64,000 bases of DNA from an uncultured Actinomycetes bacterium (GTDB lineage: Bacteria > Actinomycetota > Thermoleophilia > RBG-16-64-13): contig CAVPLM010000017.1 in the NCBI GenBank assembly GCA_963706025.1, forward strand, positions 1,709 to 65,708, given 5' to 3'. Position 1 is the first letter of the stretch. Every line of letters starts with the position of its first letter. The notes beneath the pieces were generated by a model that was not told the DNA's origin, searched no databases, and worked only from the letters and a program-made list of their open reading frames with translations. A program made the translations under genes and the position numbers. This document shows positions 11,324-27,166 of this stretch, in pieces.

Positions 11324-12405
11324 ATGGCGACCGAACTGCTGACGCCGATGTTGACGCCGACGCTGACGTTCACCGAAGTGCTGCAGCGTCTGGCCGAGGG
11401 GCGAGACCTCGCCGCGAGAAGAGGCCGCCGCGGCGCTCGACGAGCTGGTCGACGGCGAGGTCAGCGATGCTGAAGTCGGCGCCTTCCTCATGGGCCTTCG
11501 CGCCAAGGGGGAGACCGCCGACGAGATCGCCGGCCTGGCGGAGGCCATGCGCCGGCGGGCCGTGCGGGTGAGTCGTCCCGGAGCGAGGATGCGCTGGTCG
11601 ACGTCGTCGGCACCGGAGGGGACGGCCGCGGTACGTTCAACATCTCCACCACGGCGGCCTTCGTGGTGGCGGGGGCGGGGGTGAAGGTGGCCAAGCACGG
11701 GAACCGAGCGGCCAGTTCGCGCTGCGGCTCGGCGGACGTGCTGGAGGCTCTGGGGGTGCGGGTGGACCTCCAGCCGGCGGAGATCGCCGCCTGCATCGAA
11801 GAAGTGGGCATCGGGTTCATGCTGGCTTCGCTCCACCATCCCGCTTCGGGCAGGGTGGCAGGCGTGAGGAAGGCTCTGGGGGTGCGGACGGTCTTCAACT
11901 TCCTCGGCCCGCTGACCAACCCCGCCGGAGTCCGCAGATTGCTGCTGGGCGTGAGCGCGCCGGAGTACCTGGAGGTGCTGGCGGGGGCGCTCGCGCGCAT
12001 GGGATGCGAGCGAGCGCTCCTCGTCCACGGTGAGGAGGGGATCGACGAGTTGTCGGTGACCGGAGCCAGCACGGTGCTGGAGGTGAACGAAGGACAGCGT
12101 GGCGCCGGCCCGCACCTTGTGCCCCGAGGAGCACGGGATCGCCCGTCACGAACCGGCGACCTTGACCGGGGGCGATCCGCAGGAGAACGCGGCCATCACC
12201 CGGAGCGTCCTCGGCGGTAAGCGCGGCGGTCCTCGCGATGTGGTGCTGCTGAACGCGGGGGCGGCTCTGTACGTGGCCGGGGTCGGCCGGTTCCATAGAC
12301 GAGGGCATAGGGCTGGCCCGGGCGTCCATCGACTCCGGCCGGGCCTCCCGGGTCTTGGAGGAGATGGTGCTGTTCACCAACCGAGCGGGGGCTGCATCAG
12401 GATGA
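11324..12405 (+). pseudogene. trpD: Anthranilate phosphoribosyltransferase, about 3-4 frameshifts
   Basis: Pieces in ORFs 11490.., 11663.. and 12099.. ([54 protein letters not shown]). Stop TGA at 12403-12405. Confidence 0.8.
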
Positions 12406-15198: not shown

Positions 15199-16101
15199 GT
15201 GATCGCGCGCCGGTCGATGCGACCGGATGGTCTCCCGCCGGGCCCGGTGGTGAAGATCTGCGGCCTCACCCGGGCGGAGGATGTCGTCTTGGCCCGCGAC
15301 CTGGGAGCCTGGGCGCTGGGCTTCGTGTTCGCGCCCAGCCCGCGCCGGCTCACGCCGGCCGCGGCTCGGGAGCTTGTCGACCGTGTCGCGGCGACCCTCT
15401 GTCCAGCGCCGGGATCTTCGTCGGGCCTGTGCGCTGGGCGGCCCCTGCGTACAAGCGGCGACCGCAGCTCCTCTCGCCGTCGGCGTGTTCGGAGACGTGC
15501 CGGCCGCGGAAGTCGCGCGGATCGTGGAGCAGGTGGGGCTGGACGCGGTGCAATTGCACGGGGGATCGGGGCCCGAGGCCGGGTTGGTCAGGGAAGCGCT
15601 GGCAGGGTGGGAACCTCCTTTGCGGCTCGCCGGTCCGTGTCCGGTCGCAGGGCGGTCCGAGGGCGGCTCGAACCCCAGCCAGCCCCCGACAGGTTCTGCG
15701 CCCGAAGAAGGGTCGCTCGGCGTCTTGATCATCCAGGCCGTCCCGGTGGCTCTCGCCAGAATGACCGGGGCGCTCTCCGGGATTTGGTCGAGCGCGCGCG
15801 TGCCGGCGCCGACCTGGTCCTGCTCGACACCCGGGACGGCGGGGCGCTTCGGAGGTACCGGCACCCCCTTCCCCTGGGGACTGGCTCGAGAATCAGCGGT
15901 AGGGTCTCCGCTCCTGGTGGCCGGAGGCATCGATCCGGACAACGTGCTGGCGGCCCTGGAGGAATCCTCCGCTTGGGGGGTGGACGTGTCGAGTGGGGTG
16001 GAGGTGTCGCCGGGAGTCAAGGATGCCCGACTCATGGAACGGCTCTTTGCCCAGGTGGCTGAGGCGCGGCGCGCCGCCACTCGCGCGGATGGACCACGGA
16101 C

Positions 16102-18127: not shown

Positions 18128-18628
18128 CTACTGGGTGATAAGGATGCCCTCGGTCGTAAGGTAGTCTTTGAGCGCCTGCGGCCGCACCCCGTACAGCCCT
18201 GAAAGATAGGCCAAGTCGTCCTTGCGGATGGTCAGCAGGTCGCGGGAGGGATCGTTCCTCAGTTCCCGGAGGAATCCCAAGTAAGTCTCCAGAGGCCGCC
18301 GCTCCTCAGGGGCCAACCTGTCCAGATGGTCAAGGCGGATGCGAAGCGGTCCGTTGCGGGTGAGGGTGCGCTGGAACTCGGCGTCGTCTTCTATGTCGAG
18401 CAGAGACATGGGTGACTGGCCGTAGATGGAGGCCAGCTCGTAGAGCCGCTCGAGGCTGAGGCTGCGCTTTCCGCGCTCATAGGCGCTGAGCGTCGACACC
18501 ACGAAGGAGCCGCCCGACCGTTCGCAGACCTCCTGCAGGCTGAGGCCTCGGTCTTGGCGCAACCGGCGCAGCTTCTCGCCTACCAGTTCCGCGTAGCGCT
18601 TCTCTGTCGCTTCCTGCGCTCTCTCCAT
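18128..18628 (-). CDS. XRE-family helix-turn-helix transcriptional regulator
   Basis: 166 aa. LRRLRQDRGLSLQEVCERSG...STLSAYERGKRSLSLERL is a typical HTH_3 pattern. Convergent with trpA. Confidence 0.7.
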   Translation of the reverse strand: MERAQEATEKRYAELVGEKLRRLRQDRGLSLQEVCERSGGSFVVSTLSAYERGKRSLSLERLYELASIYGQSPMSLLDIEDDAEFQRTLTRNGPLRIRLDHLDRLAPEERRPLETYLGFLRELRNDPSRDLLTIRKDDLAYLSGLYGVRPQALKDYLTTEGILITQ

Positions 18629-18795: not shown

Positions 18796-18881
18796 TGCCG
18801 AAGGCGGGGGTCGAACCCGCACGAGGTGTGAGCCTCACTGGAGTTTGAGTCCAGCGCGTCTGCCAATTCCGCCACTTCGGC
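18796..18881 (-). tRNA. tRNA-Leu (anticodon CAA), class II with long variable arm
   Basis: Hand-folded: acceptor GCCGAAG/CTTCGGC, anticodon stem CTGGA/TCCAG with loop CTCAAAC, variable arm GAGG..CCTC, T-arm GCGGG-TTCGACC-CCCGC, discriminator A. CCA is not encoded. Confidence 0.85.
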
Positions 18882-19270
18882 GCATCCGTGAACAGCAGGT
18901 AGCGGCGAATATTATAGTCGACGGCGACCGGATCCCATGGGCGTGGGCAAAAAGCCGTCCCCGAAGGCCCCGGACTGAGGAGCCGGGAACGTCCTGTGCG
19001 TGCCGAGCTTCCGCGGCCGGGCCTCCTTATGCAGCGGAATCGCATTCCATCAAGCGGGATGGAACCATGCACAACCCCTGGAGTGGCGCGGCTGTCCTTA
19101 TCCTTCGAATCCGAAATGATGTAGAGTAGAAATCACACTCGTACCTTACCCGAGTGGAGTTAGGATCCATCATCTTGGGTATTTCTCTTACTGCCCGTCG
19201 AGGTCGTTGTGGTGCGTCCACACGATCGGGCGTCCAGGTAGGCAGGAAACTGAAGCGTGGAGGTTGACGT

Positions 19271-20095
19271 ATGGAGAAACTCATCATCACCGTGGCGACG
19301 ACCGGAGCCATGACCACCAAGGACAACACACCTTATCTGGCCACGGCTCCCGAGGAAATAGCCGAAGAAGTCTACATGGCCTACCAGGCCGGCGCCTCGA
19401 TCGCTCACATCCACGTGCGCACGGACGAGGGCAAGGCCACCATGGACATGGATAAGTTCCGCCAGACCGTCGGCCTAGTCCGGGAGAGGTGCGACATCAT
19501 CATCAACATGACCTCGTCCGGGGGCCTCGGCTTCAGCGATGAAGAGCGCATCGCTCCTCACCTCGAGCTCAAGCCCGACATGGGCACTTTCGACGCCGGC
19601 TCCATGAATTTCTACAAGGGGGTGTTTCTGAACCCCCCCGGTTTTCTGGAGAAGTTGGGCACGGCCTACATCGAGAACGGCATCAAGCCGGAGGTCGAGG
19701 TTTTCGACGCCGGCATGGTCTGGAACGCCAAGCGCCTGCTGAAGGACGGCTTCCTGAAGGCTCCCATTCACTTCCAGTGCTGTCTGCAGGTGCACGGGGG
19801 TATGGAAGGGACTCCCAAGAACCTTCTGCATCTGGTCGAGTCCCTTCCGCCGGGGTCTACCTGGTCGGCCTTCGGCTGCGGTCCCACCGCCCTCGCCATC
19901 ACCACCATGGCCCTCCATATGGGCGGCCACGTGCGCGTGGGTATGGAGGACAATGTCTACTTGACCAAAGGCGTGCTCGCGAAGCACAACTACGAGTTCA
20001 TAGAGAGGGTCCAGCGTCTGGCTAAGGAATTCGAGCGGCCGGTGGCCACTGTGGCCGAAGCCCGCGAGATACTTGGACTGCCGCCCAAGAAGTAA
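19271..20095 (+). CDS. BKACE-family beta-keto-acid cleavage enzyme; candidate triacetate acetoacetate-lyase
   Basis: 274 aa. IITVATTGA...APEEIAEE...AGASIAHIHVR...MTSSGG...GGHVRVGMEDN is the Kce/DUF849 TIM-barrel pattern. Confidence 0.8.
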   Translation: MEKLIITVATTGAMTTKDNTPYLATAPEEIAEEVYMAYQAGASIAHIHVRTDEGKATMDMDKFRQTVGLVRERCDIIINMTSSGGLGFSDEERIAPHLELKPDMGTFDAGSMNFYKGVFLNPPGFLEKLGTAYIENGIKPEVEVFDAGMVWNAKRLLKDGFLKAPIHFQCCLQVHGGMEGTPKNLLHLVESLPPGSTWSAFGCGPTALAITTMALHMGGHVRVGMEDNVYLTKGVLAKHNYEFIERVQRLAKEFERPVATVAEAREILGLPPKK

Positions 20096-20177
20096 GGTGT
20101 CATACCGTCCCGGTCGCGGGGAGGGTTGCCGGATCGAAATTGCGACGACGGTCGCGGAAGGCAGGAGCGAGGGAAGG

Positions 20178-20520
20178 ATGAAAAAGGTCTCGGTTAGTGA
20201 AGCAGTGGAGTATGTGGCCCCCAAACACCACGGTTGCACCACGCTGCGGCTACAGGGTAAGGATGAGACGGGTATCTCGAAGTTCTCGGTAGGCTATTCG
20301 CATTTCCTGCCGGGCGGCGGAGCCGACTTCGACGCTTCCCCGACAGAGAAGGTCTATTTCTGCACTGCCGGTGAGATCACCATCACCGACAAGGACGGCA
20401 AGGACATAGTCCTCAAGCCGTTCGACTCGATCTTCATCGGTCGCCGACGAAGGCCGGTCCGTCAAGAACAAGACGCAGTTTCCCGCCAGCATGCTGGTGG
20501 TGATCAACTACCCGGCCTAA
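20178..20520 (+). pseudogene. Small cupin-domain protein, one frameshift near 20440
   Basis: ATG 20178 behind GGGAAGG. The beta-barrel-like sequence ...GYSHFLPGGGADFDASPTEKVYFCTAGEITI continues in another frame to ...MLVVINYPA with stop at 20518-20520. Confidence 0.5.
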
Positions 20521-20596
20521 GGCTGGATCCGAGGCAGGACCTGGAGCCGTGACGGATGTCACGAGCAGCGTGTGAACATGAATCTGGAGGAGAGAA

Positions 20597-21397
20597 ATGG
20601 CTGAACCAGCAAGACTGACGGTTGACGAGCTCCGTAACATCTTCGATCTGACCGGCAAAGTGGCGGTAGTGACCGGCGGGGGCGGTGCGCTCGGCCAGGC
20701 CTGCGCGAGAGGTCTGGCAGCGCACGGCGCCGATGTCGCCGTCGTCGACCTGAAGGTCGACCTCATGGACACGATCGTCTCGGAGATCACCGCCTTGGGC
20801 CGCAAGGCAGTCCCGTACGGGTGCAACGTTACCGACGAGGCCGGTGTCCAGGGCGTGATGGACGGTGTCGCCAAGGAATTCGGGAAGGTGGACATCCTCG
20901 TCACCACGGCGGGCATCGCCGGGAACCGCCAACCCGCCGAGACGTTCGACATGGCCGAATGGCAGAAGGTGATGGACGTCAACGTCCGCGGCACCCTCCT
21001 TTGCGCGAAGGCCGCCAGCGGCTACATGATCAAGCAGGGCGGGGGCAAGGTCGTCACCATCGGCTCGGTACGGGGCTTCCTCGGCCATCCCGGCGGGTAT
21101 GCGGCATACGGCACTTCCAAGGGTGCCGTTCAGCTGCTCACCAAACAGCTGGCGACTGAGTGGGCGAAGTATCACATCAACGTGAACTCCATCGCCCCCG
21201 CCATCTTCTGGACGCCGCTTACGCAGCAGATCCTCGACGACCCGAAGATGTATGAGCTCTTCATGCAGCGTATTCCCTGGGGCCGGGCCGCAATACCGGA
21301 CGATTTCGTGGGTGCCGTCGTCTATCTCTCGTCTCGAGCCTCTGATTTCGTGACCGGTCTCATCCTGTCCGTCGACGGCGGCGCGGTGGCCGGATGA
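20597..21397 (+). CDS. Short-chain dehydrogenase/reductase; candidate phloroglucinol reductase
   Basis: 266 aa. TGGGGALG Rossmann motif and YGTSK catalytic motif. Stop overlaps the next gene. Confidence 0.8.
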   Translation: MAEPARLTVDELRNIFDLTGKVAVVTGGGGALGQACARGLAAHGADVAVVDLKVDLMDTIVSEITALGRKAVPYGCNVTDEAGVQGVMDGVAKEFGKVDILVTTAGIAGNRQPAETFDMAEWQKVMDVNVRGTLLCAKAASGYMIKQGGGKVVTIGSVRGFLGHPGGYAAYGTSKGAVQLLTKQLATEWAKYHINVNSIAPAIFWTPLTQQILDDPKMYELFMQRIPWGRAAIPDDFVGAVVYLSSRASDFVTGLILSVDGGAVAG

Positions 21398-22356
21398 TGA
21401 AGCTGGAAGATGTCAAGAGGATCGCCATTATCGGTGGCGGCAACATGGGCCACGGCTGCGCCATGGTGTTTGCCGGCGCCGGCTACCCGGTCGGTCTCTA
21501 CAGCCGCAGGGCCGAGACTCTGCAGAAGGCCGTCGAAGGCATGCGCGCCGACCTGACTTTCTTGGCCGAACGTGGTCTCGGAAAGCTCGAGGAAGTCGAG
21601 GCGACCATGGCCCGCGTGACGACCACGCAGGTCATGGAAGAAGCGGCCGCCGATGCCGACTTCGTGCTGGAGTGCGTCGCCGAGGATATGGCCCTCAAAC
21701 AGGACACCTTCCAGAAGCTGGACCAGATGTGCAAGCCGGATGCGATCCTGGCCACGAACACCTCGGTGATGAGCCCGACTGAGATCGCGAGCAAGTCGGC
21801 CATAAGGCAGAGGATCCTGGGCACCCACTGGTGGAACCCGCCCTTCCTGATCCCGCTCGTCGAGGTAGTGCAGACGGAAGAGACGCCACCCTGGGTGATC
21901 GATGTCACGATGGATCTTCATCGTGCGATCGGCAAGCACCCGGTGCATTGCCGCAAGGACGTGCCCGGCTTTGTCGCGAACAGGCTGCAGCACGCGCTGT
22001 GGCGGGAGGCCGTGTCGATCGTGGAGCGGGGCATCGCCGACGCCGCCACCGTGGACGAGAGTCTCAAGTACGGCCCGGGTCTCAGGTTGCCCGTGCTGGC
22101 TCCGCTCGAGAACGCCGACATGGTCGGCCTGGACCTTACCCTGTCCATACACAGCTATGTGCTAAAACACCTGGAGGATTCCCACGAGCCTTCCCCGCTC
22201 CTCAAGGAGAAGGTGGAGAAGGGCGAGCTGGGCTTCAAGACCGGCGGGGTCGGGTTCCAGGAATGGACGCCGGAGGCGCAGAAGGCGCTGCGCGCCAATC
22301 TACTCACCTACTTGACCAAGGCCGTCCGTGAGATGAAGGAGGCCGAGGCCACGTAA
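21394..22356 (+). CDS. 3-hydroxyacyl-CoA-dehydrogenase-family NAD(P) oxidoreductase; candidate 3-hydroxy-5-oxohexanoate dehydrogenase
   Basis: 320 aa. IAIIGGGNMGHG N-terminal Rossmann fold, HWWNPP and ENADMVGLD C-terminal domain motifs. Overlaps the SDR stop (ATGA). Confidence 0.75.
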   Translation: MMKLEDVKRIAIIGGGNMGHGCAMVFAGAGYPVGLYSRRAETLQKAVEGMRADLTFLAERGLGKLEEVEATMARVTTTQVMEEAAADADFVLECVAEDMALKQDTFQKLDQMCKPDAILATNTSVMSPTEIASKSAIRQRILGTHWWNPPFLIPLVEVVQTEETPPWVIDVTMDLHRAIGKHPVHCRKDVPGFVANRLQHALWREAVSIVERGIADAATVDESLKYGPGLRLPVLAPLENADMVGLDLTLSIHSYVLKHLEDSHEPSPLLKEKVEKGELGFKTGGVGFQEWTPEAQKALRANLLTYLTKAVREMKEAEAT

Positions 22357-22461
22357 CGGCCGGCGCGCCACGAAGAGCGAGCCGGCGACGACGGACAATC
22401 CGGGCGCACTGGACGCCCGTATGTCGAAACTGTAACGAGAAGAAGGAGAAAAAGGAACACC

Positions 22462-23421
22462 ATGGGAAAGAAAGTATTCGTAGACCTGACCCATCCATTC
22501 AGTGCGGAGATTCCTCGCTGGCCGTATTTCGTTAAGCCGGTCATCGATTCGATGCACACCTTGGCAAAGGGCGGCGTCCTCACGCAGAGAGTCGATTGTG
22601 TTCAGCACACAGGTACTCATGCGGACGCACCTCGTCACGTTATGGAACGCGAATTCAACGGCAAAAGAGCTCGTTATACCCATGAAATGCCTGTTGACGC
22701 GTACACGGGTGACGCAGTCTGCCTCGAGATCAAGATCCACAAGTGGGGCCTGATCCTGCCCGAGCATCTCGAGGATGCCTGCAAGAGGGCGAACATCAAG
22801 CCGGAAGAGCTCAAGGGCATGGTTGTCTGCCTGAATACCGGCATGCATCGCCTGTTCGACGACTCCAAAGACTACTACCACTATGCCTGCGGTACCGGCG
22901 TCGAGGCCGGCAAGTGGTTCGTGAAGCACCAGGTCAAGTGCGTTGCCATGGATTCGCAGGCACTGGATCATCCGCTTCATACGGCTATGGGCAAAAACGG
23001 CCCACCGCAGATGAATCTGCCCGGAGCTTCGGGCAAGCCTATCACGGTAGAATATGCCGAGCAGTTCGGTGAAGAAGCGTATGCCGAATTTGAGAAAGCG
23101 GCCTACATCAAGCTGCATGGCCAAGCCGCTTATGATGCCAAATTCGGTGATCTCGAAGCGCTTGGAAATGAGGGAACCTGGGAACCCTGCCACAAGCAGA
23201 TGCTGGGTCACGGCATCGTCGGCGTCGAGAACCTGGGCGGAGACTTGGACAAGGTGTCCGGCAAGCGCTTCCGCTTCTTCTGCTTCCCGATCCGCTGGTA
23301 CATGGGTGACGGCTCGATGGTCCGCTGCGTGGCCGAGATCGACGAAGACGACCTGAACGACGTTCCGGATAGGACGTACACGTACTGCGGTACTGGGTAC
23401 GGCCCGATCTCCGGTTATTGA
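22462..23421 (+). CDS. Cyclase-family (kynurenine-formamidase-like) metal hydrolase; candidate dihydrophloroglucinol cyclohydrolase
   Basis: 319 aa. VDLTHPF and QHTGTHADAPRH (HxGTHxDxPxH) motifs. RBS AAGGAG upstream. GC about 50-55 % in the stretches I counted, lower than its surroundings. Confidence 0.75.
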   Translation: MGKKVFVDLTHPFSAEIPRWPYFVKPVIDSMHTLAKGGVLTQRVDCVQHTGTHADAPRHVMEREFNGKRARYTHEMPVDAYTGDAVCLEIKIHKWGLILPEHLEDACKRANIKPEELKGMVVCLNTGMHRLFDDSKDYYHYACGTGVEAGKWFVKHQVKCVAMDSQALDHPLHTAMGKNGPPQMNLPGASGKPITVEYAEQFGEEAYAEFEKAAYIKLHGQAAYDAKFGDLEALGNEGTWEPCHKQMLGHGIVGVENLGGDLDKVSGKRFRFFCFPIRWYMGDGSMVRCVAEIDEDDLNDVPDRTYTYCGTGYGPISGY

Positions 23422-23486
23422 CATTCGGTCCGGCCTCGCTCGTCGTAAGGCGAGGGGGTCGGTCCGGTACGGAATGTTGTATGCAG

Positions 23487-23512
23487 CCCCCCGCCGGTTA
23501 TTCGGCGGGGGG
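23487..23512 (+). terminator. Rho-independent terminator after the cyclase-family gene
   Basis: CCCCCCGCCG-gttatt-CGGCGGGGGG (10-bp perfect stem) followed by CTTTCTTG. Confidence 0.6.
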
Positions 23513-23729
23513 CTTTCTTGGTGCGGCTCCCGCTCCCCCGACAGCGGTTCACTTGCTGGGATGTTATTCCGCAGAACGGGATACTGCATTGAGAAGCCTG
23601 CGGGATGCCCGTGGAGACCGCGGGTGCCCGTGGGTTTCGCGTGTAGAATGAAGCCGATACCAGAGTCCGAGTGCCGGTCGTGCCACAGGGGGCAAGGGCC
23701 GCAACAAGGTGAACGGAGGTAAGGCACGC

Positions 23730-26330
23730 ATGGGAAAAGTGGAACGGCTGACAAACTGTACGACGGGCGGTCCCGTATTCGTGGATGTGAAAGACGGCAA
23801 GATCATCCGCATGACGCCCATCGACCTGGATGAGCACGATGCACAGGGCTGGACGATCGAGGCTCGGGGGCGCGAATTCAAGCCCCGGAGGCGGACCACG
23901 CTGTCTCCACACGCCGTGGCTCAGAAGTCGATGGTCTACTCACCCAAAAGGATCCTGACCCCGCTCAAGCGGGTCGATTTCGACCCGAAGGGCGCCCGCA
24001 ACATGCAGAACCGGGGCGTGTCTGGATACGAGCCCATTTCGTGGGACGAGGCCCTTGACATCGTCTGCGATGAGGTCGTCCGGGTGAAGAGGGAGGTCGG
24101 TCCGGCGGCGATCCTCTCTACTCCGGGTTCCCACCACCTGTGGGGGAATGTGGGTTATCGCCACAGCACGTATTTCCGCTTCATGAACCTGGTCGGCTTC
24201 ACCTACGGTGAGCACAACCCCGACAGCTGGGAAGGTTGGCACTGGGGCGGCATGCACATGTGGGGCAACAGCCACCGTTTGGGCATCCCCGAGCAGTACG
24301 ATCTGCTCGAGGACGCCCTCAAGCACACCGACATGGTCGTCTTCTGGTCCTCAGACCCGGAGACCAGCGGGGGCGGCATCTACTCGGCCTTCGAGAGCAC
24401 CCCGCGCCGCTTCTGGATGAAGGAGCTCGGGATCAAGATGGTGTTCGTCGATCCCTACTTCAACCACACCGCCGGACTGTACGCCGACAAATGGTTCTCG
24501 CCTCGTCTGGGGACCGACGTGGCTTTCGGGCTGGGCATCGCCTTCACCTGGCTCACCGAGGATCTCTACGACAAGCAGTATGTGACCGATCGCACCGTCG
24601 GCTTTGACGAGTGGAAGGACTACGTGCTCGGTAAGAGCGACGGCGTTCCCAAGACGCCGGAGTGGGCCGAAGTCGAGAGCGGCATCCCCGCGCGTGAGAT
24701 CCGGGCTCTGGCTCGCGAGTGGGGCTCCAAGAAGACCATGCTGGCCGCCGGCGGCCTGGGCGGCTGGGGCGGCGCCTGCCGTGCGGCCACAGGCAACGAG
24801 TGGGCTCGGGTCATGATCGCCCTAGCGGCGATGCAGGGTTACGGCAAGCCGGGCAGCAACATCTGGGGCACCTCGCAGGGTGCTCCGGCCGACGAGTCGT
24901 TCTTCTTCCCGGGCTACGCGGAGGGCGGAATCTCCGGCGACGTCGACAACTCGGCCGCTGGGTACGAATTCGTGTATCGGATGTTCGCGAACACCCGCGG
25001 GGCCACTCGGACCGCTCATCACTCGACCGAAGGCCAGACGGTGCCGCGGATCCGGATCCCCGAGGCCATGATGCACGAAAAGGTGGAGTGGAGAGGCAAA
25101 GGCTTCTGCGGCTCGTCCATCGAGTCGCAGTTTCAGAAGTACGAGTATCCCGCACCAGGCTATCCGCATGTGGAGATGTACTGGAAGTACGGCACCTCTT
25201 TCATCGGCACGATGACCGAGACCAACCGCTATGTGACGGCGTATCGGGAAGGCAAAGTGCCTTTCGTGGTCAACCAGTCCATCTGGTTCGAAGGGGAAGC
25301 CCGGTTCGCAGACGTCATCCTGCCGGCCTGCACCAACTTCGAGCGCTGGGACATCAGCGAGTTCGCCAACTGCTCGGGCTACATCCCTCATACCGGTGCC
25401 GGCCAGTGCAACCACCGGATGATCGTATTGCAGAAGAAGTGCATCGAGCCCCTTGGGGAGAGCAAGTCGGACTACGAAATCTACCGCATGTTCGCGGAGC
25501 GGCTGGGCATCGGCGAGATCTTCACGATGGGCGGCAAGGACGAATACCAGTGGGTCAAGGACTACTTCGACGCCACCGACCTGCCGAAGAACATCAGCTG
25601 GAAGGATTTCGAGAAGAAGGGCTACTACGTGGTGCCCTTCCCGGCCGACCACAAATCCACCCCGGCCATGCGCTGGTTCGCCGAAGGGCGCAAGAAGGAC
25701 ACGCCGGACTGGGGCCCGCATCCCGCGGACACCGTCGCGCTGGAAGGTCTGCAGACTACGACCGGCAAGATCGAGTTCGTGTCGAGCAGCCTGAAGCGCT
25801 TCGAAGCCGGCGGGGTCGTCGATCCCGAACGGCCGATCATGGGCCCGCAGTACATCCCGTCCTGGGAGGGCCATCGCACCGAAGAGCTTGTCGTCAAGTA
25901 CCCGCTGCAGATGGTCTCCCCGCACCCGCGCTTCAGCTTCCACACCATGGGCGACAGCAAGGAGAGCTGGCTGAACGAGGTGAAGGACCACCGGGTGCTG
26001 GTGAACGGCCACCGCTACTGGATCATGCGCCTGAACACCAAGGACGCGGAGGCTCGTGGCATCGAAGAGGGCAACCTCATCCGGGCGTTCAACGATCGCG
26101 GCTCGGTGATCCTCGCCGCCCAGGTGGGCGAGCGGGTACCCGCGGGCACGGTGCACTCCTACGAGTCCTGCGCCGACTACCTGCCGCTGGGTGAACCCGG
26201 GTATTCGCCGGACACTGCAGGGTGCGTTAACATTCTCGCGCCTAAGCGCTTCATAACGCCGACGTCCACGGCCATGGCCAACAACTCCTGCCTTATCCAG
26301 GTGGAGAAATGGGAGGGAGAAACTAAATGA
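23730..26330 (+). CDS. athL: Pyrogallol-phloroglucinol transhydroxylase-like large (bis-MGD) subunit, copy alpha1
   Basis: ATG 23730 lies 10 nt after GGAGG. MGKVERLTNCTTGGPVFVDVKDGKIIRMTP..., PDSWEGWHWGGMHMWG, SQSIWFEGEARFADVILPACTNFERWDISEFANCSGY. Collinear with my memory of Pelobacter AthL. No twin-arginine motif and no N-terminal Cys cluster. Confidence 0.85.
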   Translation: MGKVERLTNCTTGGPVFVDVKDGKIIRMTPIDLDEHDAQGWTIEARGREFKPRRRTTLSPHAVAQKSMVYSPKRILTPLKRVDFDPKGARNMQNRGVSGYEPISWDEALDIVCDEVVRVKREVGPAAILSTPGSHHLWGNVGYRHSTYFRFMNLVGFTYGEHNPDSWEGWHWGGMHMWGNSHRLGIPEQYDLLEDALKHTDMVVFWSSDPETSGGGIYSAFESTPRRFWMKELGIKMVFVDPYFNHTAGLYADKWFSPRLGTDVAFGLGIAFTWLTEDLYDKQYVTDRTVGFDEWKDYVLGKSDGVPKTPEWAEVESGIPAREIRALAREWGSKKTMLAAGGLGGWGGACRAATGNEWARVMIALAAMQGYGKPGSNIWGTSQGAPADESFFFPGYAEGGISGDVDNSAAGYEFVYRMFANTRGATRTAHHSTEGQTVPRIRIPEAMMHEKVEWRGKGFCGSSIESQFQKYEYPAPGYPHVEMYWKYGTSFIGTMTETNRYVTAYREGKVPFVVNQSIWFEGEARFADVILPACTNFERWDISEFANCSGYIPHTGAGQCNHRMIVLQKKCIEPLGESKSDYEIYRMFAERLGIGEIFTMGGKDEYQWVKDYFDATDLPKNISWKDFEKKGYYVVPFPADHKSTPAMRWFAEGRKKDTPDWGPHPADTVALEGLQTTTGKIEFVSSSLKRFEAGGVVDPERPIMGPQYIPSWEGHRTEELVVKYPLQMVSPHPRFSFHTMGDSKESWLNEVKDHRVLVNGHRYWIMRLNTKDAEARGIEEGNLIRAFNDRGSVILAAQVGERVPAGTVHSYESCADYLPLGEPGYSPDTAGCVNILAPKRFITPTSTAMANNSCLIQVEKWEGETK

Positions 26331-27166
26331 AGAAGTGGAACATGGTCATCGACCTTGCCCGCTGTCACGACTGCAACGACTGCTTCTTGGCCGACAAGGA
26401 CGAGTTCGTAGGCAATGACTTTCCGCCGTACTCCCTGGCTCAGCCCTGGTCGGGTCACCGCTGGATGAACATCGAGCGCAAAGAGCGGGGCCAGTATCCC
26501 ATCGTCCAGGTGTGCTACCTGCCGCGTCCCTGCATGCACTGTGACGAGCCCCACTGCCTGAGGGACTCGCCCAAGAAGACGATCGAGAAGCGCAAAGACG
26601 GCATCGTTCTCATCGATCCCAAGAAGGCCAAAGGCCACCCGGAGATCGTAGACACCTGCCCCTACGGCTCCATCTACTGGAACGAGGAAGCTCAAGTGGC
26701 CCAGAAATGCACGGGCTGCGTGCATCTGCTCGAGGATGACTGGACCGAGACCCGCTGCTCGCAGGTGTGCCCCACCGAGGCCATCAAGCTGGTCATGGCC
26801 GAGGACGAAGACATGGCCGCGATGGTAGCCGCCGAAGGACTGGAGGTCATGCATCCCGAGTTCGGCACCAAGCCTCGGGTCTACTATAAGAACCTCTACC
26901 GCTGGACGAAGGTGTTCGTTTCCGGCAGCGTGGCCTACGCAGACACCGATGAGTGTGCAGAAGGCGCCCGCGTGATGGTGGCCGAAGTGGGCCATTCGGT
27001 GGGCGAGGGCGTGGTCAACAACTACGGCGAGTTCGTTGTCGACAAGCTCGAGCCGGGCAAAACGTACACCGTCGTCGTAACCGCCGGGGGGTACCAACCC
27101 TATTCGGCCGATGTCACCCTGGACAAGAGCCTCAACATAGGGCTGATACAGCTCGAAAAGGCCTAG
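26327..27166 (+). CDS. bthL: Transhydroxylase-like small subunit (3x[4Fe-4S]-type + C-terminal Ig-like domain), beta1
   Basis: ATG overlaps the alpha1 stop. VIDLARCHDCNDC, CMHCDEPHC, VAQKCTGCVHLL, GTKPRVYYKNLYRW, then a CarboxypepD_reg-like tail. Confidence 0.85.
   Translation: MKKWNMVIDLARCHDCNDCFLADKDEFVGNDFPPYSLAQPWSGHRWMNIERKERGQYPIVQVCYLPRPCMHCDEPHCLRDSPKKTIEKRKDGIVLIDPKKAKGHPEIVDTCPYGSIYWNEEAQVAQKCTGCVHLLEDDWTETRCSQVCPTEAIKLVMAEDEDMAAMVAAEGLEVMHPEFGTKPRVYYKNLYRWTKVFVSGSVAYADTDECAEGARVMVAEVGHSVGEGVVNNYGEFVVDKLEPGKTYTVVVTAGGYQPYSADVTLDKSLNIGLIQLEKA

What the first reader, a model, noticed from the sequence alone, without database searches (positions are those of the whole stretch)
19271..23421. 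Phloroglucinol-degradation-like module directly upstream of the transhydroxylase genes
Seen in the sequence: the gene order is BKACE-family enzyme, cupin, SDR (TGGGGALG/YGTSK), 3-hydroxyacyl-CoA-DH-family enzyme, then a cyclase-family hydrolase (QHTGTHADAPRH). A clean terminator follows, and then alpha1/beta1.

Established knowledge, from my memory of the recently characterised clostridial pathway: anaerobic phloroglucinol breakdown uses four enzymes.
- An SDR phloroglucinol reductase.
- A Mn-dependent cyclase-family dihydrophloroglucinol cyclohydrolase.
- A 3-hydroxy-5-oxohexanoate dehydrogenase.
- A BKACE-family triacetate acetoacetate-lyase.

Inference: together with alpha1/beta1 this would encode the whole route from pyrogallol to phloroglucinol to acetoacetate plus acetyl-CoA in one locus, in a high-GC organism unrelated to Pelobacter or clostridia. 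The cupin has no assigned role in that pathway.
Basis: partly seen in the sequence, partly recalled or inferred. Interest (0 to 1): 0.6.

Follow-up and report, generated by a model that had tools for sequence, protein, structure and literature searches.

The report
Phloroglucinol breakdown operon beside pyrogallol transhydroxylase
This is a copy, in an uncultured soil actinobacterium, of the known oxygen-free pathway that opens the plant-phenol ring phloroglucinol, placed directly before a genuine pyrogallol-to-phloroglucinol enzyme; it is largely ordinary, but its two redox enzymes appear to have swapped cofactors and it carries a conserved small cupin of unknown role.

Summary
On the + strand lie BKACE (19271-20095), cupin (20178-~20520), SDR (20597-21397), HADH (21394-22356) and cyclase (22462-23421). 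A strong terminator hairpin follows (23485-23514), then alpha1/beta1.

- The cyclase is 84% identical to the characterised C. scatologenes dihydrophloroglucinol cyclohydrolase.
- The HADH is 50% identical to its triacetate-forming dehydrogenase, as close as characterised orthologues are to each other.
- The BKACE is nearer the clostridial triacetate lyase type (60%) than lysine-pathway Kce (42%) and lacks Kce's amine-binding Glu.
- The SDR falls in a sister clade of characterised phloroglucinol reductases.
- Alpha1 scores 1297 bits against the Pelobacter transhydroxylase.

The same gene order recurs in about 20 uncultured Actinomycetota genomes. The pathway is published and was already reported in many phyla, so this is a new member of a known kind.

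New details:
- Cofactor motifs look reciprocally swapped (reductase NAD-type, dehydrogenase NADP-type).
- A metal-free cupin accompanies 41 of 47 complete clusters. This window's copy carries a one-base frameshift, probably an assembly error.
- The cyclase gene alone is 87-92% identical in DNA across phyla, pointing to gene-level horizontal transfer.

The parts
18796..18881 (-). tRNA-Leu(CAA). Together with trpA and a BldD-like regulator (18128-18628, minus strand) it marks the conserved upstream border of the operon. G+C content drops here from about 0.67 to about 0.61.
   Evidence: ARAGORN; composition profile; the trpA - BldD-like - operon order is kept in about 24 related loci.
19116..19127 (+). 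Nearly invariant box ATGATGTAGAGT (ATGGTGTAGAGT in most relatives). It contains a -10-like TAGAGT and is the probable promoter of the operon.
   Evidence: Alignment of the upstream regions of the window and 21 syntenic loci.
19128..19270 (+). Conserved 5' leader of about 140 nt. Hairpin P1 pairs 19137-19140 with 19157-19160. Hairpin P2 pairs 19164-19169 with 19176-19181 and is followed by a U-rich stretch. P2 looks like a terminator in about 10 of 18 relatives and is weak in the window itself. The leader ends in the ribosome-binding site GGAGG.
   Evidence: 78.9% of cells paired against at most 59% for slid partners; covariation score reached by 3 of 500 shuffles. No Rfam family matches at E <= 10.
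19271..20095 (+). BKACE-family enzyme, the predicted triacetate acetoacetate-lyase (TAL). It has Met at the position of Kce Glu14 / CsTAL Trp16.
   Evidence: Pfam BKACE 335 bits. NCBIfam Kce model 328 bits, below its cut-off of 382. 59.7% identity to the clostridial cluster BKACE against 42.5% to Kce 2Y7D. Residue survey.
20178..20520 (+). Small metal-free cupin (113 aa if read through), a homologue of the Rv1717 family and a conserved companion of the pathway with no assigned role. This copy has a +1 insertion at about 20441.
20597..21397 (+). Classical SDR, the predicted phloroglucinol reductase of a sister clade to the characterised PGRs. It has Asp51 (VVDLK) where PGRs carry T-G-R-S/N, so it is predicted to prefer NADH.
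21394..22356 (+). 3-hydroxyacyl-CoA-dehydrogenase-family enzyme, the predicted (S)-3-hydroxy-5-oxohexanoate dehydrogenase (TfD). Its start overlaps the SDR stop by 4 nt. It has LYSRR where most orthologues have Asp, so it is predicted to accept NADP.
22462..23421 (+). Cyclase-family dihydrophloroglucinol cyclohydrolase (DPGC). Its GC3 is 0.70 against 0.82-0.85 for its neighbours.
   Evidence: 84.4% identity to CsDPGC, with the metal ligands and Trp20/Tyr22 kept. 468 relatives in genome contigs. Composition and trees.
23485..23514 (+). Intrinsic-terminator-like hairpin that closes the five-gene operon.
   Evidence: 13 pairs, 11 G-C, tail TTCTT.
23709..27166 (+). Alpha1 (probable start at ATG 23730, end 26330) and beta1 (26327-27166): orthologues of the pyrogallol-phloroglucinol transhydroxylase AthL/BthL, which supply phloroglucinol to the operon.
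   Evidence: 1297 bits over residues 8-871 against PDB 4V4C. Pfam AhtL-like_1st 100 bits; Fer4_11 plus CarboxypepD_reg in beta1.

Best explanation
The five genes form one operon for anaerobic phloroglucinol catabolism, as worked out in Clostridium scatologenes. The proposed steps are:
1. The SDR reduces phloroglucinol to dihydrophloroglucinol.
2. The cyclase-family enzyme (DPGC, expected to need Mn2+) opens the ring by a retro-Claisen hydrolysis to (S)-3-hydroxy-5-oxohexanoate.
3. The HADH-family enzyme (TfD) oxidises this to triacetate (3,5-dioxohexanoate).
4. The BKACE enzyme (TAL) transfers the acetoacetyl part to acetyl-CoA, giving acetoacetate and acetoacetyl-CoA.

The next transcription unit encodes a true pyrogallol-phloroglucinol transhydroxylase. 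The locus therefore links pyrogallol (from gallate and tannins) to ring cleavage.

Shown here: orthology or near-orthology of each enzyme, conserved synteny, and operon anatomy.

Inferred only: the substrates and activities in this organism; NADH use by the reductase and NADP use by the dehydrogenase, read from cofactor-pocket motifs; and any role of the cupin.
For: DPGC:
- 84.4% identity to the characterised CsDPGC.
- The HxGTHxDxPxH and H...E metal ligands and the substrate residues Trp20/Tyr22 are conserved.

TfD:
- 50.3% identity to CsTfD, against 52.1% between the orthologues CsTfD and ErTfD and 32.5% to a true 3-hydroxybutyryl-CoA dehydrogenase.
- The catalytic Ser/His/Asn and the TfD-type GLRLP insertion are present.

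TAL:
- 59.7% identity to the BKACE of a clostridial cluster whose DPGC is 91% identical to CsDPGC, against 42.5% to Kce.
- Kce's amine-binding Glu is replaced by a hydrophobic residue in every cluster-linked BKACE.

SDR:
- All DPGC-linked SDRs group together (SH-aLRT 87), apart from the KduD/Gno structures. The window's SDR lies in the sister clade of the one that holds PDB 5G4K.
- Both clades share the pocket motifs S-x-R and P-x-[IV]-F-[RW]-[ST]-x-L-T, which the outgroups lack.
- It is the best match of a classical PGR in the whole 3.66-Mb genome.

Synteny and operon anatomy:
- The order BKACE-cupin-SDR-HADH-DPGC, mostly followed by alpha/beta, recurs in about 20 Actinomycetota loci.
- Of 47 complete loci, 44 have a BKACE and 41 a cupin.
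- Alpha1 scores 1297 bits against 4V4C.
- The genes overlap or are closely spaced, and there is one terminator after DPGC.
Against: - The SDR is only 36-40% identical to characterised PGRs. It scores higher against KduD/gluconate-5-dehydrogenase structures (171 against 142 bits). It lacks the NADPH-binding T-G-R-S/N motif. The grouping with the PGRs has only moderate support (SH-aLRT 87).
- The BKACE has Met, not the Trp that Zhou et al. highlighted for TAL.
- The cupin is frameshifted in this assembly.
- No enzyme of this clade has been assayed.
- The organism is uncultured. The genome is a bin, 92% complete and 7% contaminated.
- Thiolase and CoA-transferase for the last steps are not in the locus.
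Confidence: 0.85

Rival explanations
1. The module degrades a different beta-keto or beta-hydroxy acid. Candidates are the lysine-fermentation intermediate 3-keto-5-aminohexanoate (Kce) or carnitine (carnitine dehydrogenase plus dehydrocarnitine cleavage enzyme). In this reading the SDR would be a sugar-acid reductase.
For: - The best NCBIfam hit of the BKACE is Kce (328 bits).
- The best NCBIfam and PDB hits of the SDR are gluconate-5-dehydrogenase and KduD types.
- The HADH also matches carnitine dehydrogenase models.
Against: - All those hits are below the curated cut-offs: 328 against 382, 220 against 279, and 153 against 592.
- A genuine clostridial PGR and a TAL-type BKACE give the same generic hits.
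- Kce's Glu14 is absent.
- The cyclase is 84% identical to a characterised DPGC, an enzyme with no role in those pathways.
- There are no lysine-fermentation or carnitine genes nearby.
Confidence: 0.04
2. The operon is a phloroglucinol-type pathway, but the SDR is not the ring reductase. It would act on another carbonyl, for example a side reaction or a different hydroxylated ring made by the many transhydroxylase-like paralogues. Dihydrophloroglucinol would then come from an unrecognised reductase.
For: - The SDR has low identity to characterised PGRs and a changed cofactor motif.
- Its closest relatives among the loci are at most 73% identical, while the neighbouring genes reach 93-97%.
- The genome holds more than 20 transhydroxylase-like alpha subunits and two further HADH-BKACE-SDR clusters.
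Against: - No classical PGR exists elsewhere in the genome.
- The SDR keeps the position next to the cupin and TfD that the true PGR has in Firmicutes.
- It shares pocket motifs with the PGRs that are absent from the outgroups.
Confidence: 0.08
3. The operon is decaying or inactive in this organism, the frameshifted cupin being a sign of pseudogenisation.
For: There is a one-base insertion at about 20441.
Against: - The out-of-frame tail is still conserved up to its stop codon.
- The other four genes are intact with high GC3.
- Several other genes in the window show similar single frame breaks against relatives, at about 12100-12284, 15411-15467 and 32362. Related long-read bins are full of such breaks. 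This pattern fits assembly indels.
- Some relatives lack the cupin altogether yet keep the rest (L001, L003).
Confidence: 0.03

Closest known systems
Anaerobic phloroglucinol degradation cluster of Clostridium scatologenes (PGR, DPGC, TfD, TAL; Zhou et al. 2023, mBio, PMC10470551)
   Same: - The same four enzyme families are present, with the same predicted chemistry.
- DPGC is 84% identical and TfD 50% identical.
- The BKACE lacks the Kce Glu.
- A cupin precedes the reductase, as in a related Clostridium locus (L078).
   Different: - The reductase belongs to a sister clade (36-40% identity) with an Asp-type (NAD) pocket instead of T-G-R-S/N.
- TfD has S-R-R instead of the Asp or Ile-Arg-Glu variants.
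- TAL has Met, not Trp.
- There is no thiolase, CoA-transferase, kinase, MFS transporter or regulator in the operon.
- A molybdenum transhydroxylase lies directly downstream.
- The host is a high-GC actinobacterium.
Pyrogallol-phloroglucinol transhydroxylase AthL/BthL of Pelobacter acidigallici (PDB 4V4C-4V4E)
   Same: - Alpha1 aligns over its whole length (1297 bits).
- Beta1 has the 4Fe-4S and carboxypeptidase-regulatory-like domains.
   Different: - Here the enzyme is genetically linked to the ring-cleavage genes.
- Zhou et al. state that the Pelobacter genome was not available, so its own gene context was unknown to them.
Phloroglucinol reductase of Clostridium sp. ATCC BAA-442 (PDB 5G4K/5G4L; Conradt et al. 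2016, as cited by Zhou et al.). Assigning 5G4K to that paper rests on my own memory. The PDB entry is titled only 'oxidoreductase, SDR family'.
   Same: - Classical SDR with the Ser-Tyr-Lys catalytic residues.
- Shares the motifs S-x-R and P-x-[IV]-F-[RW]-[ST]-x-L-T.
   Different: - 36% identity.
- The cofactor pocket is V-D-L-K instead of T-G-R-N.
- The C-terminus is different.
Rv1717 of Mycobacterium tuberculosis, a small cupin reported as a beta-galactosidase (Bharti et al. 2021, PMC7873859; NCBIfam NF050094)
   Same: - The window's cupin matches the Rv1717 model at 64 bits, E = 4e-17.
- Zhou et al. list an M. tuberculosis DPGC of 276 aa.
- From memory, Rv1714-Rv1718 are SDR, FadB3, cyclase, cupin and BKACE.
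   Different: - The score is below the equivalog cut-off of 175.
- The galactosidase assignment has no link to this gene context.
- The Rv1714-Rv1718 gene order was not verified here.

Membership tests
Dihydrophloroglucinol cyclohydrolase (DPGC, cyclase family PF04199) | High sequence identity to the characterised CsDPGC over the full length. | tested here: met
   259/307 = 84.4% identity to the sequence printed in the paper's supplement. Pfam Cyclase 106 bits.
Dihydrophloroglucinol cyclohydrolase (DPGC, cyclase family PF04199) | Metal ligands (HxGTHxDxPxH and the later His/Glu) and the substrate residues Trp20/Tyr22, which replace Ile32/Leu34 of isatin hydrolase. | tested here: met
   The window has IPRWPYF, QHTGTHADAPRH and EPCH...GVENLGG aligned with CsDPGC.
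Dihydrophloroglucinol cyclohydrolase (DPGC, cyclase family PF04199) | Mn2+-dependent hydrolysis of dihydrophloroglucinol. | not testable with these tools
   Needs an enzyme assay.
(S)-3-hydroxy-5-oxohexanoate dehydrogenase (TfD) | Catalytic His143, Ser122 and Asn194 kept. The CoA-binding Lys56/Asn221 of Hbd are lost, with a TfD-type insertion. | tested here: met
   NTSVMS, GTHWWNPP, ANRLQH and the GLRLP insertion align with CsTfD. Identity is 50.3% to CsTfD against 32.5% to Hbd 4KUH.
(S)-3-hydroxy-5-oxohexanoate dehydrogenase (TfD) | Use of NAD(P)+ (CsTfD prefers NADH by Km). | tested here: inconclusive
   The window has LYSRR where most orthologues have Asp. This suggests NADP, but from the motif only.
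Triacetate acetoacetate-lyase (TAL, BKACE family PF05853) | BKACE fold, and closer to cluster-linked TAL-type enzymes than to Kce. | tested here: met
   Pfam 335 bits. 59.7% identity to the L078 BKACE against 42.5% to Kce.
Triacetate acetoacetate-lyase (TAL, BKACE family PF05853) | Kce Glu14 replaced by Trp16, as in CsTAL. | tested here: not met
   The window and its whole clade have Met (GAMTT). Firmicutes have Trp; two other cluster types have Val or Ile. None has Glu.
Phloroglucinol reductase (PGR, classical SDR) | Membership of the clade of characterised PGRs. | tested here: inconclusive
   The window's SDR is in the sister clade. The joint group has SH-aLRT 87, and each subclade has 96-99.
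Phloroglucinol reductase (PGR, classical SDR) | Conserved T(G)R(S/N) motif that binds the 2'-phosphate of NADPH. | tested here: not met
   The window has V-D-L-K and 20 relatives have W-D-I/M-K. Other clusters have TGR[SN], TSRR or SGRT.
Phloroglucinol reductase (PGR, classical SDR) | Pocket motifs shared with 5G4K and absent from the KduD/Gno outgroups. | tested here: met
   GS-V-R-G and P-A-I-F-W-T-P-L-T in the window, against S-x-R and P-T-V-F-R-S-D-L-T in the PGRs.
Pyrogallol-phloroglucinol transhydroxylase (AthL/BthL) | Full-length similarity of the large subunit to the Pelobacter enzyme, and a small subunit with Fe-S and carboxypeptidase-regulatory-like domains. | tested here: met
   1297 bits, residues 8-871 against 1-870 of 4V4C. 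Domains.
[quoted passage not shown] | NCBIfam equivalog cut-off reached, and Glu14 present for the 5-amino group. | tested here: not met
   328 bits against a cut-off of 382. Met stands at the Glu position.
Carnitine dehydrogenase / dehydrocarnitine cleavage pair | The HADH reaches the carnitine dehydrogenase equivalog cut-offs. | tested here: not met
   153 and 144 bits against cut-offs of 592 and 414.
Rv1717-type cupin (NCBIfam NF050094) | Equivalog cut-off of 175 bits. | tested here: not met
   64 bits, E = 4e-17. This is a homologue, not an equivalog.

The most novel reading that the evidence does not exclude
In this actinobacterial clade the pathway has been rewired and has a fifth player.

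The reductase has switched to NADH (Asp51) and the dehydrogenase to NADP+ (Ser-Arg-Arg). Each phloroglucinol molecule degraded would then convert one NADH into one NADPH. That is the opposite of the clostridial arrangement, which drains NADPH and needs an outside electron donor.

The metal-free cupin kept in 87% of clusters would be a real accessory enzyme of the pathway. One possibility is a keto-enol tautomerase acting on dihydrophloroglucinol or triacetate.
Probability: 0.3. Interest if true: 0.6.

Novelty: new member of a known kind. Interest (0 to 1): 0.35.

Why it matters
Phloroglucinol and pyrogallol are the funnels through which flavonoids and tannins are mineralised without oxygen. 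This bears on carbon storage in wet soils. The locus shows that a widespread group of uncultured soil Actinomycetota carries the molybdenum transhydroxylase and the ring-cleavage genes side by side. That gives a clean genetic marker for 'pyrogallol to acetyl units' in metagenomes.

Three points could be tested directly with recombinant proteins:
- whether the cofactor preference of the two redox steps is swapped;
- what the conserved cupin does, which would also bear on the annotation of M. tuberculosis Rv1717;
- why the cyclase gene is nearly identical across phyla.

Tried and rejected
- NCBIfam holds no models for PGR, DPGC, TfD or TAL. Even the clostridial enzymes get only generic hits, so curated-family membership could not be used.
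- PDB by sequence has no close relative of the cyclase.
- The profile and Foldseek searches with the cupin found only generic small cupins (TM1459 type, structural-genomics entries). They gave no functional lead.
The window has 3 matches against 1.2 expected, and 10 of 100 shuffles reach that. The box is kept at the same place in only 3 of 21 relatives.
- RNAalifold on the full 18-sequence leader alignment predicted no structure. Only the two 5' hairpins get modest support. I did not build a covariance model.
- The M. tuberculosis Rv1714-Rv1718 gene order could not be verified. The control genomes of the genome search do not include it, and the Rv1717 paper does not mention its neighbours.
- The Collinsella aldolase variant of the pathway, recalled from memory, was not found in the paper library.

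Full report
**Observation**

- Pfam assigns them to BKACE (335 bits), Cupin_2 (weak), adh_short, 3HCDH_N + 3HCDH and Cyclase.
- The quoted motif strings are in the translations.
- SDR and HADH overlap by 4 nt. The other gaps are 76-105 nt.
- A 13-bp, G+C-rich hairpin followed by TTCTT sits at 23485-23514, after the cyclase gene.
- The next genes are a pyrogallol hydroxytransferase large-subunit homologue and a 4Fe-4S small subunit.

Two corrections are needed. The cupin begins at ATG 20178, not at the TTG inside the BKACE gene. It also has a single extra base near 20441, after which its conserved C-terminus continues in the +1 frame to a stop at 20518-20520.

**Comparison with the characterised enzymes**

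The pathway was published for Clostridium scatologenes by Zhou et al. 2023 (PMC10470551). It runs from PGR through DPGC and TfD to TAL. The supplement prints the DPGC and TfD sequences.

- *DPGC.* The window's cyclase is 84.4% identical to CsDPGC. It keeps the metal ligands and Trp20/Tyr22.
- *TfD.* The HADH is 50.3% identical to CsTfD. That equals the identity between the C. scatologenes and E. ramulus orthologues (52.1%). Identity to a true 3-hydroxybutyryl-CoA dehydrogenase is only 32.5%. It has the catalytic Ser/His/Asn and the TfD-type insertion.
- *Proxy for PGR and TAL.* I used a related Clostridium locus, L078, whose DPGC is 91% and whose TfD is about 75% identical to the C. scatologenes proteins. 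Its SDR scores 346 bits against the PDB phloroglucinol reductase 5G4K.
- *TAL.* The window's BKACE is 59.7% identical to the L078 BKACE and 42.5% identical to Kce. At the position of Kce's amine-binding Glu14 it has Met. Firmicutes cluster enzymes have the Trp noted by Zhou et al. Two other cluster types have Val or Ile. None has Glu.
- *PGR.* The SDR is only 36-40% identical to classical PGRs and scores a little higher against KduD/gluconate-5-dehydrogenase structures.
  - In a tree of all SDRs found beside DPGC genes, plus PDB outgroups, the cluster-linked SDRs form one group (SH-aLRT 87).
  - That group has two well-supported halves. One holds 5G4K, Firmicutes and Desulfobacterota. The other holds the Actinomycetota, Alkalibaculum and the window.
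  - Both halves share S-x-R after the catalytic Ser and a P-x-[IV]-F-[RW]-[ST]-x-L-T loop, which the outgroups lack.
  - A classical PGR used as a query finds no better match in the 3.66-Mb genome than this SDR.
NCBIfam has no PGR, DPGC, TfD or TAL models, and a genuine PGR gets the same gluconate-5-dehydrogenase top hit.
- *Transhydroxylase.* Alpha1 aligns end to end with the Pelobacter acidigallici transhydroxylase large subunit (1297 bits).

**Context in other genomes**

A scan of one genome per species found 468 DPGC relatives. I examined the best 80 loci.
- The order BKACE-cupin-SDR-HADH-DPGC recurs in about 20 uncultured Actinomycetota bins. It is mostly followed at once by alpha/beta. 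It is preceded by trpA, a BldD-like regulator and a tRNA-Leu.
- A second Thermoleophilia group has alpha ... SDR-SDR-HADH-DPGC-cupin-BKACE.
- Firmicutes have cupin-PGR-TfD-DPGC-TAL. Among the Firmicutes, only Alkalibaculum also carries the transhydroxylase.
- Of 47 loci with DPGC, SDR and HADH and at least 5 kb on both sides, 44 have a BKACE, 41 a cupin, and 21 a transhydroxylase alpha subunit within 7 kb.

The arrangement in the window is therefore a conserved lineage trait, not a one-off.

Zhou et al. already reported the four-gene cluster in Proteobacteria, Mycobacterium, sulfate reducers and Archaeoglobus. Notes of this scan record some 25 further copies. The module itself is a new member of a known kind.

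**What differs**

*(a) Cofactor pockets.*
- Characterised PGRs carry T-G-R-S/N at the end of beta-strand 2, which binds the 2'-phosphate of NADPH (Zhou et al.).
- The window has V-D-L-K and 20 relatives have W-D-I/M-K. By the established rule for classical SDRs, an Asp there favours NAD(H).
- In 19 of those 20 relatives the TfD has lost the Asp that most orthologues carry (MDL, QDV, YDV) and has Y-S-R-R/K instead, as in the window. L010 and L047 keep an Asp-type TfD. For L015 the TfD motif could not be read.
- Clusters with an Arg-type reductase mostly keep the Asp-type TfD.
- This reciprocal pattern suggests a swap: reductase on NADH, dehydrogenase making NADPH.
- The swap rests on motifs only. 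CsTfD, which also lacks the Asp, still prefers NADH by Km.

*(b) The cupin.*
- An alignment of 26 cluster-linked copies has invariant Tyr12, His17, Glu67, Glu92, Arg94 and Asn98.
- None of the four metal-binding His residues of its nearest solved relatives (TM1459) is present.
- The AlphaFold model is confident (pLDDT 86) but matches only generic small cupins.
- It matches the NCBIfam model built on M. tuberculosis Rv1717 (64 bits, below the cut-off).
- No paper in the library links a cupin to this pathway. Zhou et al. reconstituted the pathway in vitro without it, so it is at most an accessory.

*(c) The frameshift.*
- The out-of-frame tail is still conserved.
- Other genes in the window show similar single breaks, and related long-read bins are full of them.
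- An assembly indel is the likely cause.

*(d) The DPGC gene.*
- Protein identity between the window and Firmicutes is 85-88% for DPGC. It is 48-59% for TfD and TAL and 33-54% for the SDR.
- At DNA level the window's gene is 87-92% identical to copies in Desulfobacterota, including 86.8% to the isolate Desulfosarcina variabilis. That is more than to some syntenic Actinomycetota (79-86%).
- In a DNA tree the Actinomycetota form one clade nested in a Desulfobacterota grade, with very short branches.
- GC3 of the gene is 0.70, against 0.82-0.85 for its neighbours. It is likewise intermediate in low-GC Desulfobacterota.
- This points to horizontal spread of the cyclase gene alone, which then combines with different partner enzymes. 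The direction of transfer is not settled.

**Regulation (side observation)**

About 155 nt upstream of the BKACE start lies a nearly invariant ATGGTGTAGAGT box with a -10-like TAGAGT. It is followed by a conserved leader with two hairpins. The second hairpin is followed by a U-run in about 10 of 18 relatives. No Rfam family matches. Pair counts give modest support: 78.9% of cells paired against at most 59% when partners are slid, and 3 of 500 shuffles reach the covariation score. In the window itself the second hairpin is weak. This may be an attenuator and deserves its own study.

**Verdict**

With about 85% confidence the operon degrades phloroglucinol by the known route. Together with alpha1/beta1 it links pyrogallol to ring cleavage.
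- TAL products are acetoacetate and acetoacetyl-CoA.
- Thiolase and CoA-transferase lie elsewhere. Two CtfAB-like pairs are on contig C5.
- Occurrence in high-GC bacteria is not new.

Interest is moderate to low for the module as such. The cofactor swap, the cupin and the mobile cyclase gene are the points worth an experiment.

Noticed in passing
window 19116-19270: A nearly invariant ATGGTGTAGAGT box is followed by a conserved leader of about 140 nt with two hairpins. In many relatives the second hairpin is followed by a U-run. There is no Rfam match. This is a possible attenuator of the phloroglucinol operon.
   Followed up: partly
window 22462-23421 and L001-L080: The DPGC gene alone is 87-92% identical in DNA between Actinomycetota and Desulfobacterota. 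Its GC3 is intermediate in both phyla (0.70 here against 0.82-0.85 for its neighbours). The Actinomycetota clade is nested within a Desulfobacterota grade. This indicates gene-level horizontal transfer.
   Followed up: partly
window ~12100-12284, ~15411-15467, ~20441, ~32362: Single frame breaks relative to several independent relatives, in a trp-operon gene, in a gene between trpC and trpF, in the cupin and in the C-terminal part of alpha3. The Molydop_binding match of alpha3 is truncated. The pattern fits residual indels of a long-read assembly.
   Followed up: partly
genome contigs C1, C3, C5, C8, C14, C19, C29 (G000): The genome holds more than 20 transhydroxylase-like alpha subunits. Eight or more of them are 65-78% identical to alpha1. 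Only one DPGC orthologue is present.
   Followed up: no
G000 C14:98881-101951: A cyclase paralogue, 38% identical to DPGC, lies directly upstream of an alpha1 paralogue (65% identity). It could be a ring hydrolase for a different hydroxylated ring.
   Followed up: no
G000 C3:639915-642578 and C5:1104537-1106963: Two further HADH-BKACE-SDR clusters, 35-42% identical to the operon's proteins and without a DPGC. Their substrate is unknown.
   Followed up: no
window 18796-18881: tRNA-Leu(CAA) on the minus strand lies at the point where G+C falls from about 0.67 to about 0.61. The trpA - BldD-like - tRNA - operon order is conserved in about 24 related bins. If this is an island, it is old.
   Followed up: partly
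L004, L008, L027: These contigs are labelled Bacteroidales, Methanomicrobiaceae and Pseudomonadota. Their clusters and DPGC alleles are Actinomycetota- or Desulfobacterota-like, with full actinobacterial synteny in L004. The contigs are probably mis-binned.
   Followed up: no
L040-L051, L055, L064 (Thermoleophilia group 2); L023: These clusters carry a second SDR (39-45% identical to the window's SDR) next to the PGR-like one. L023 has one Arg-type and one Asp-type SDR side by side.
   Followed up: no
window 19036-19048, 23558-23570: The GGAAT-N3-ATTCC boxes proposed earlier as an IclR operator are not more frequent than chance. They are conserved in only 3 of 21 relatives upstream of the operon.
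   Followed up: yes
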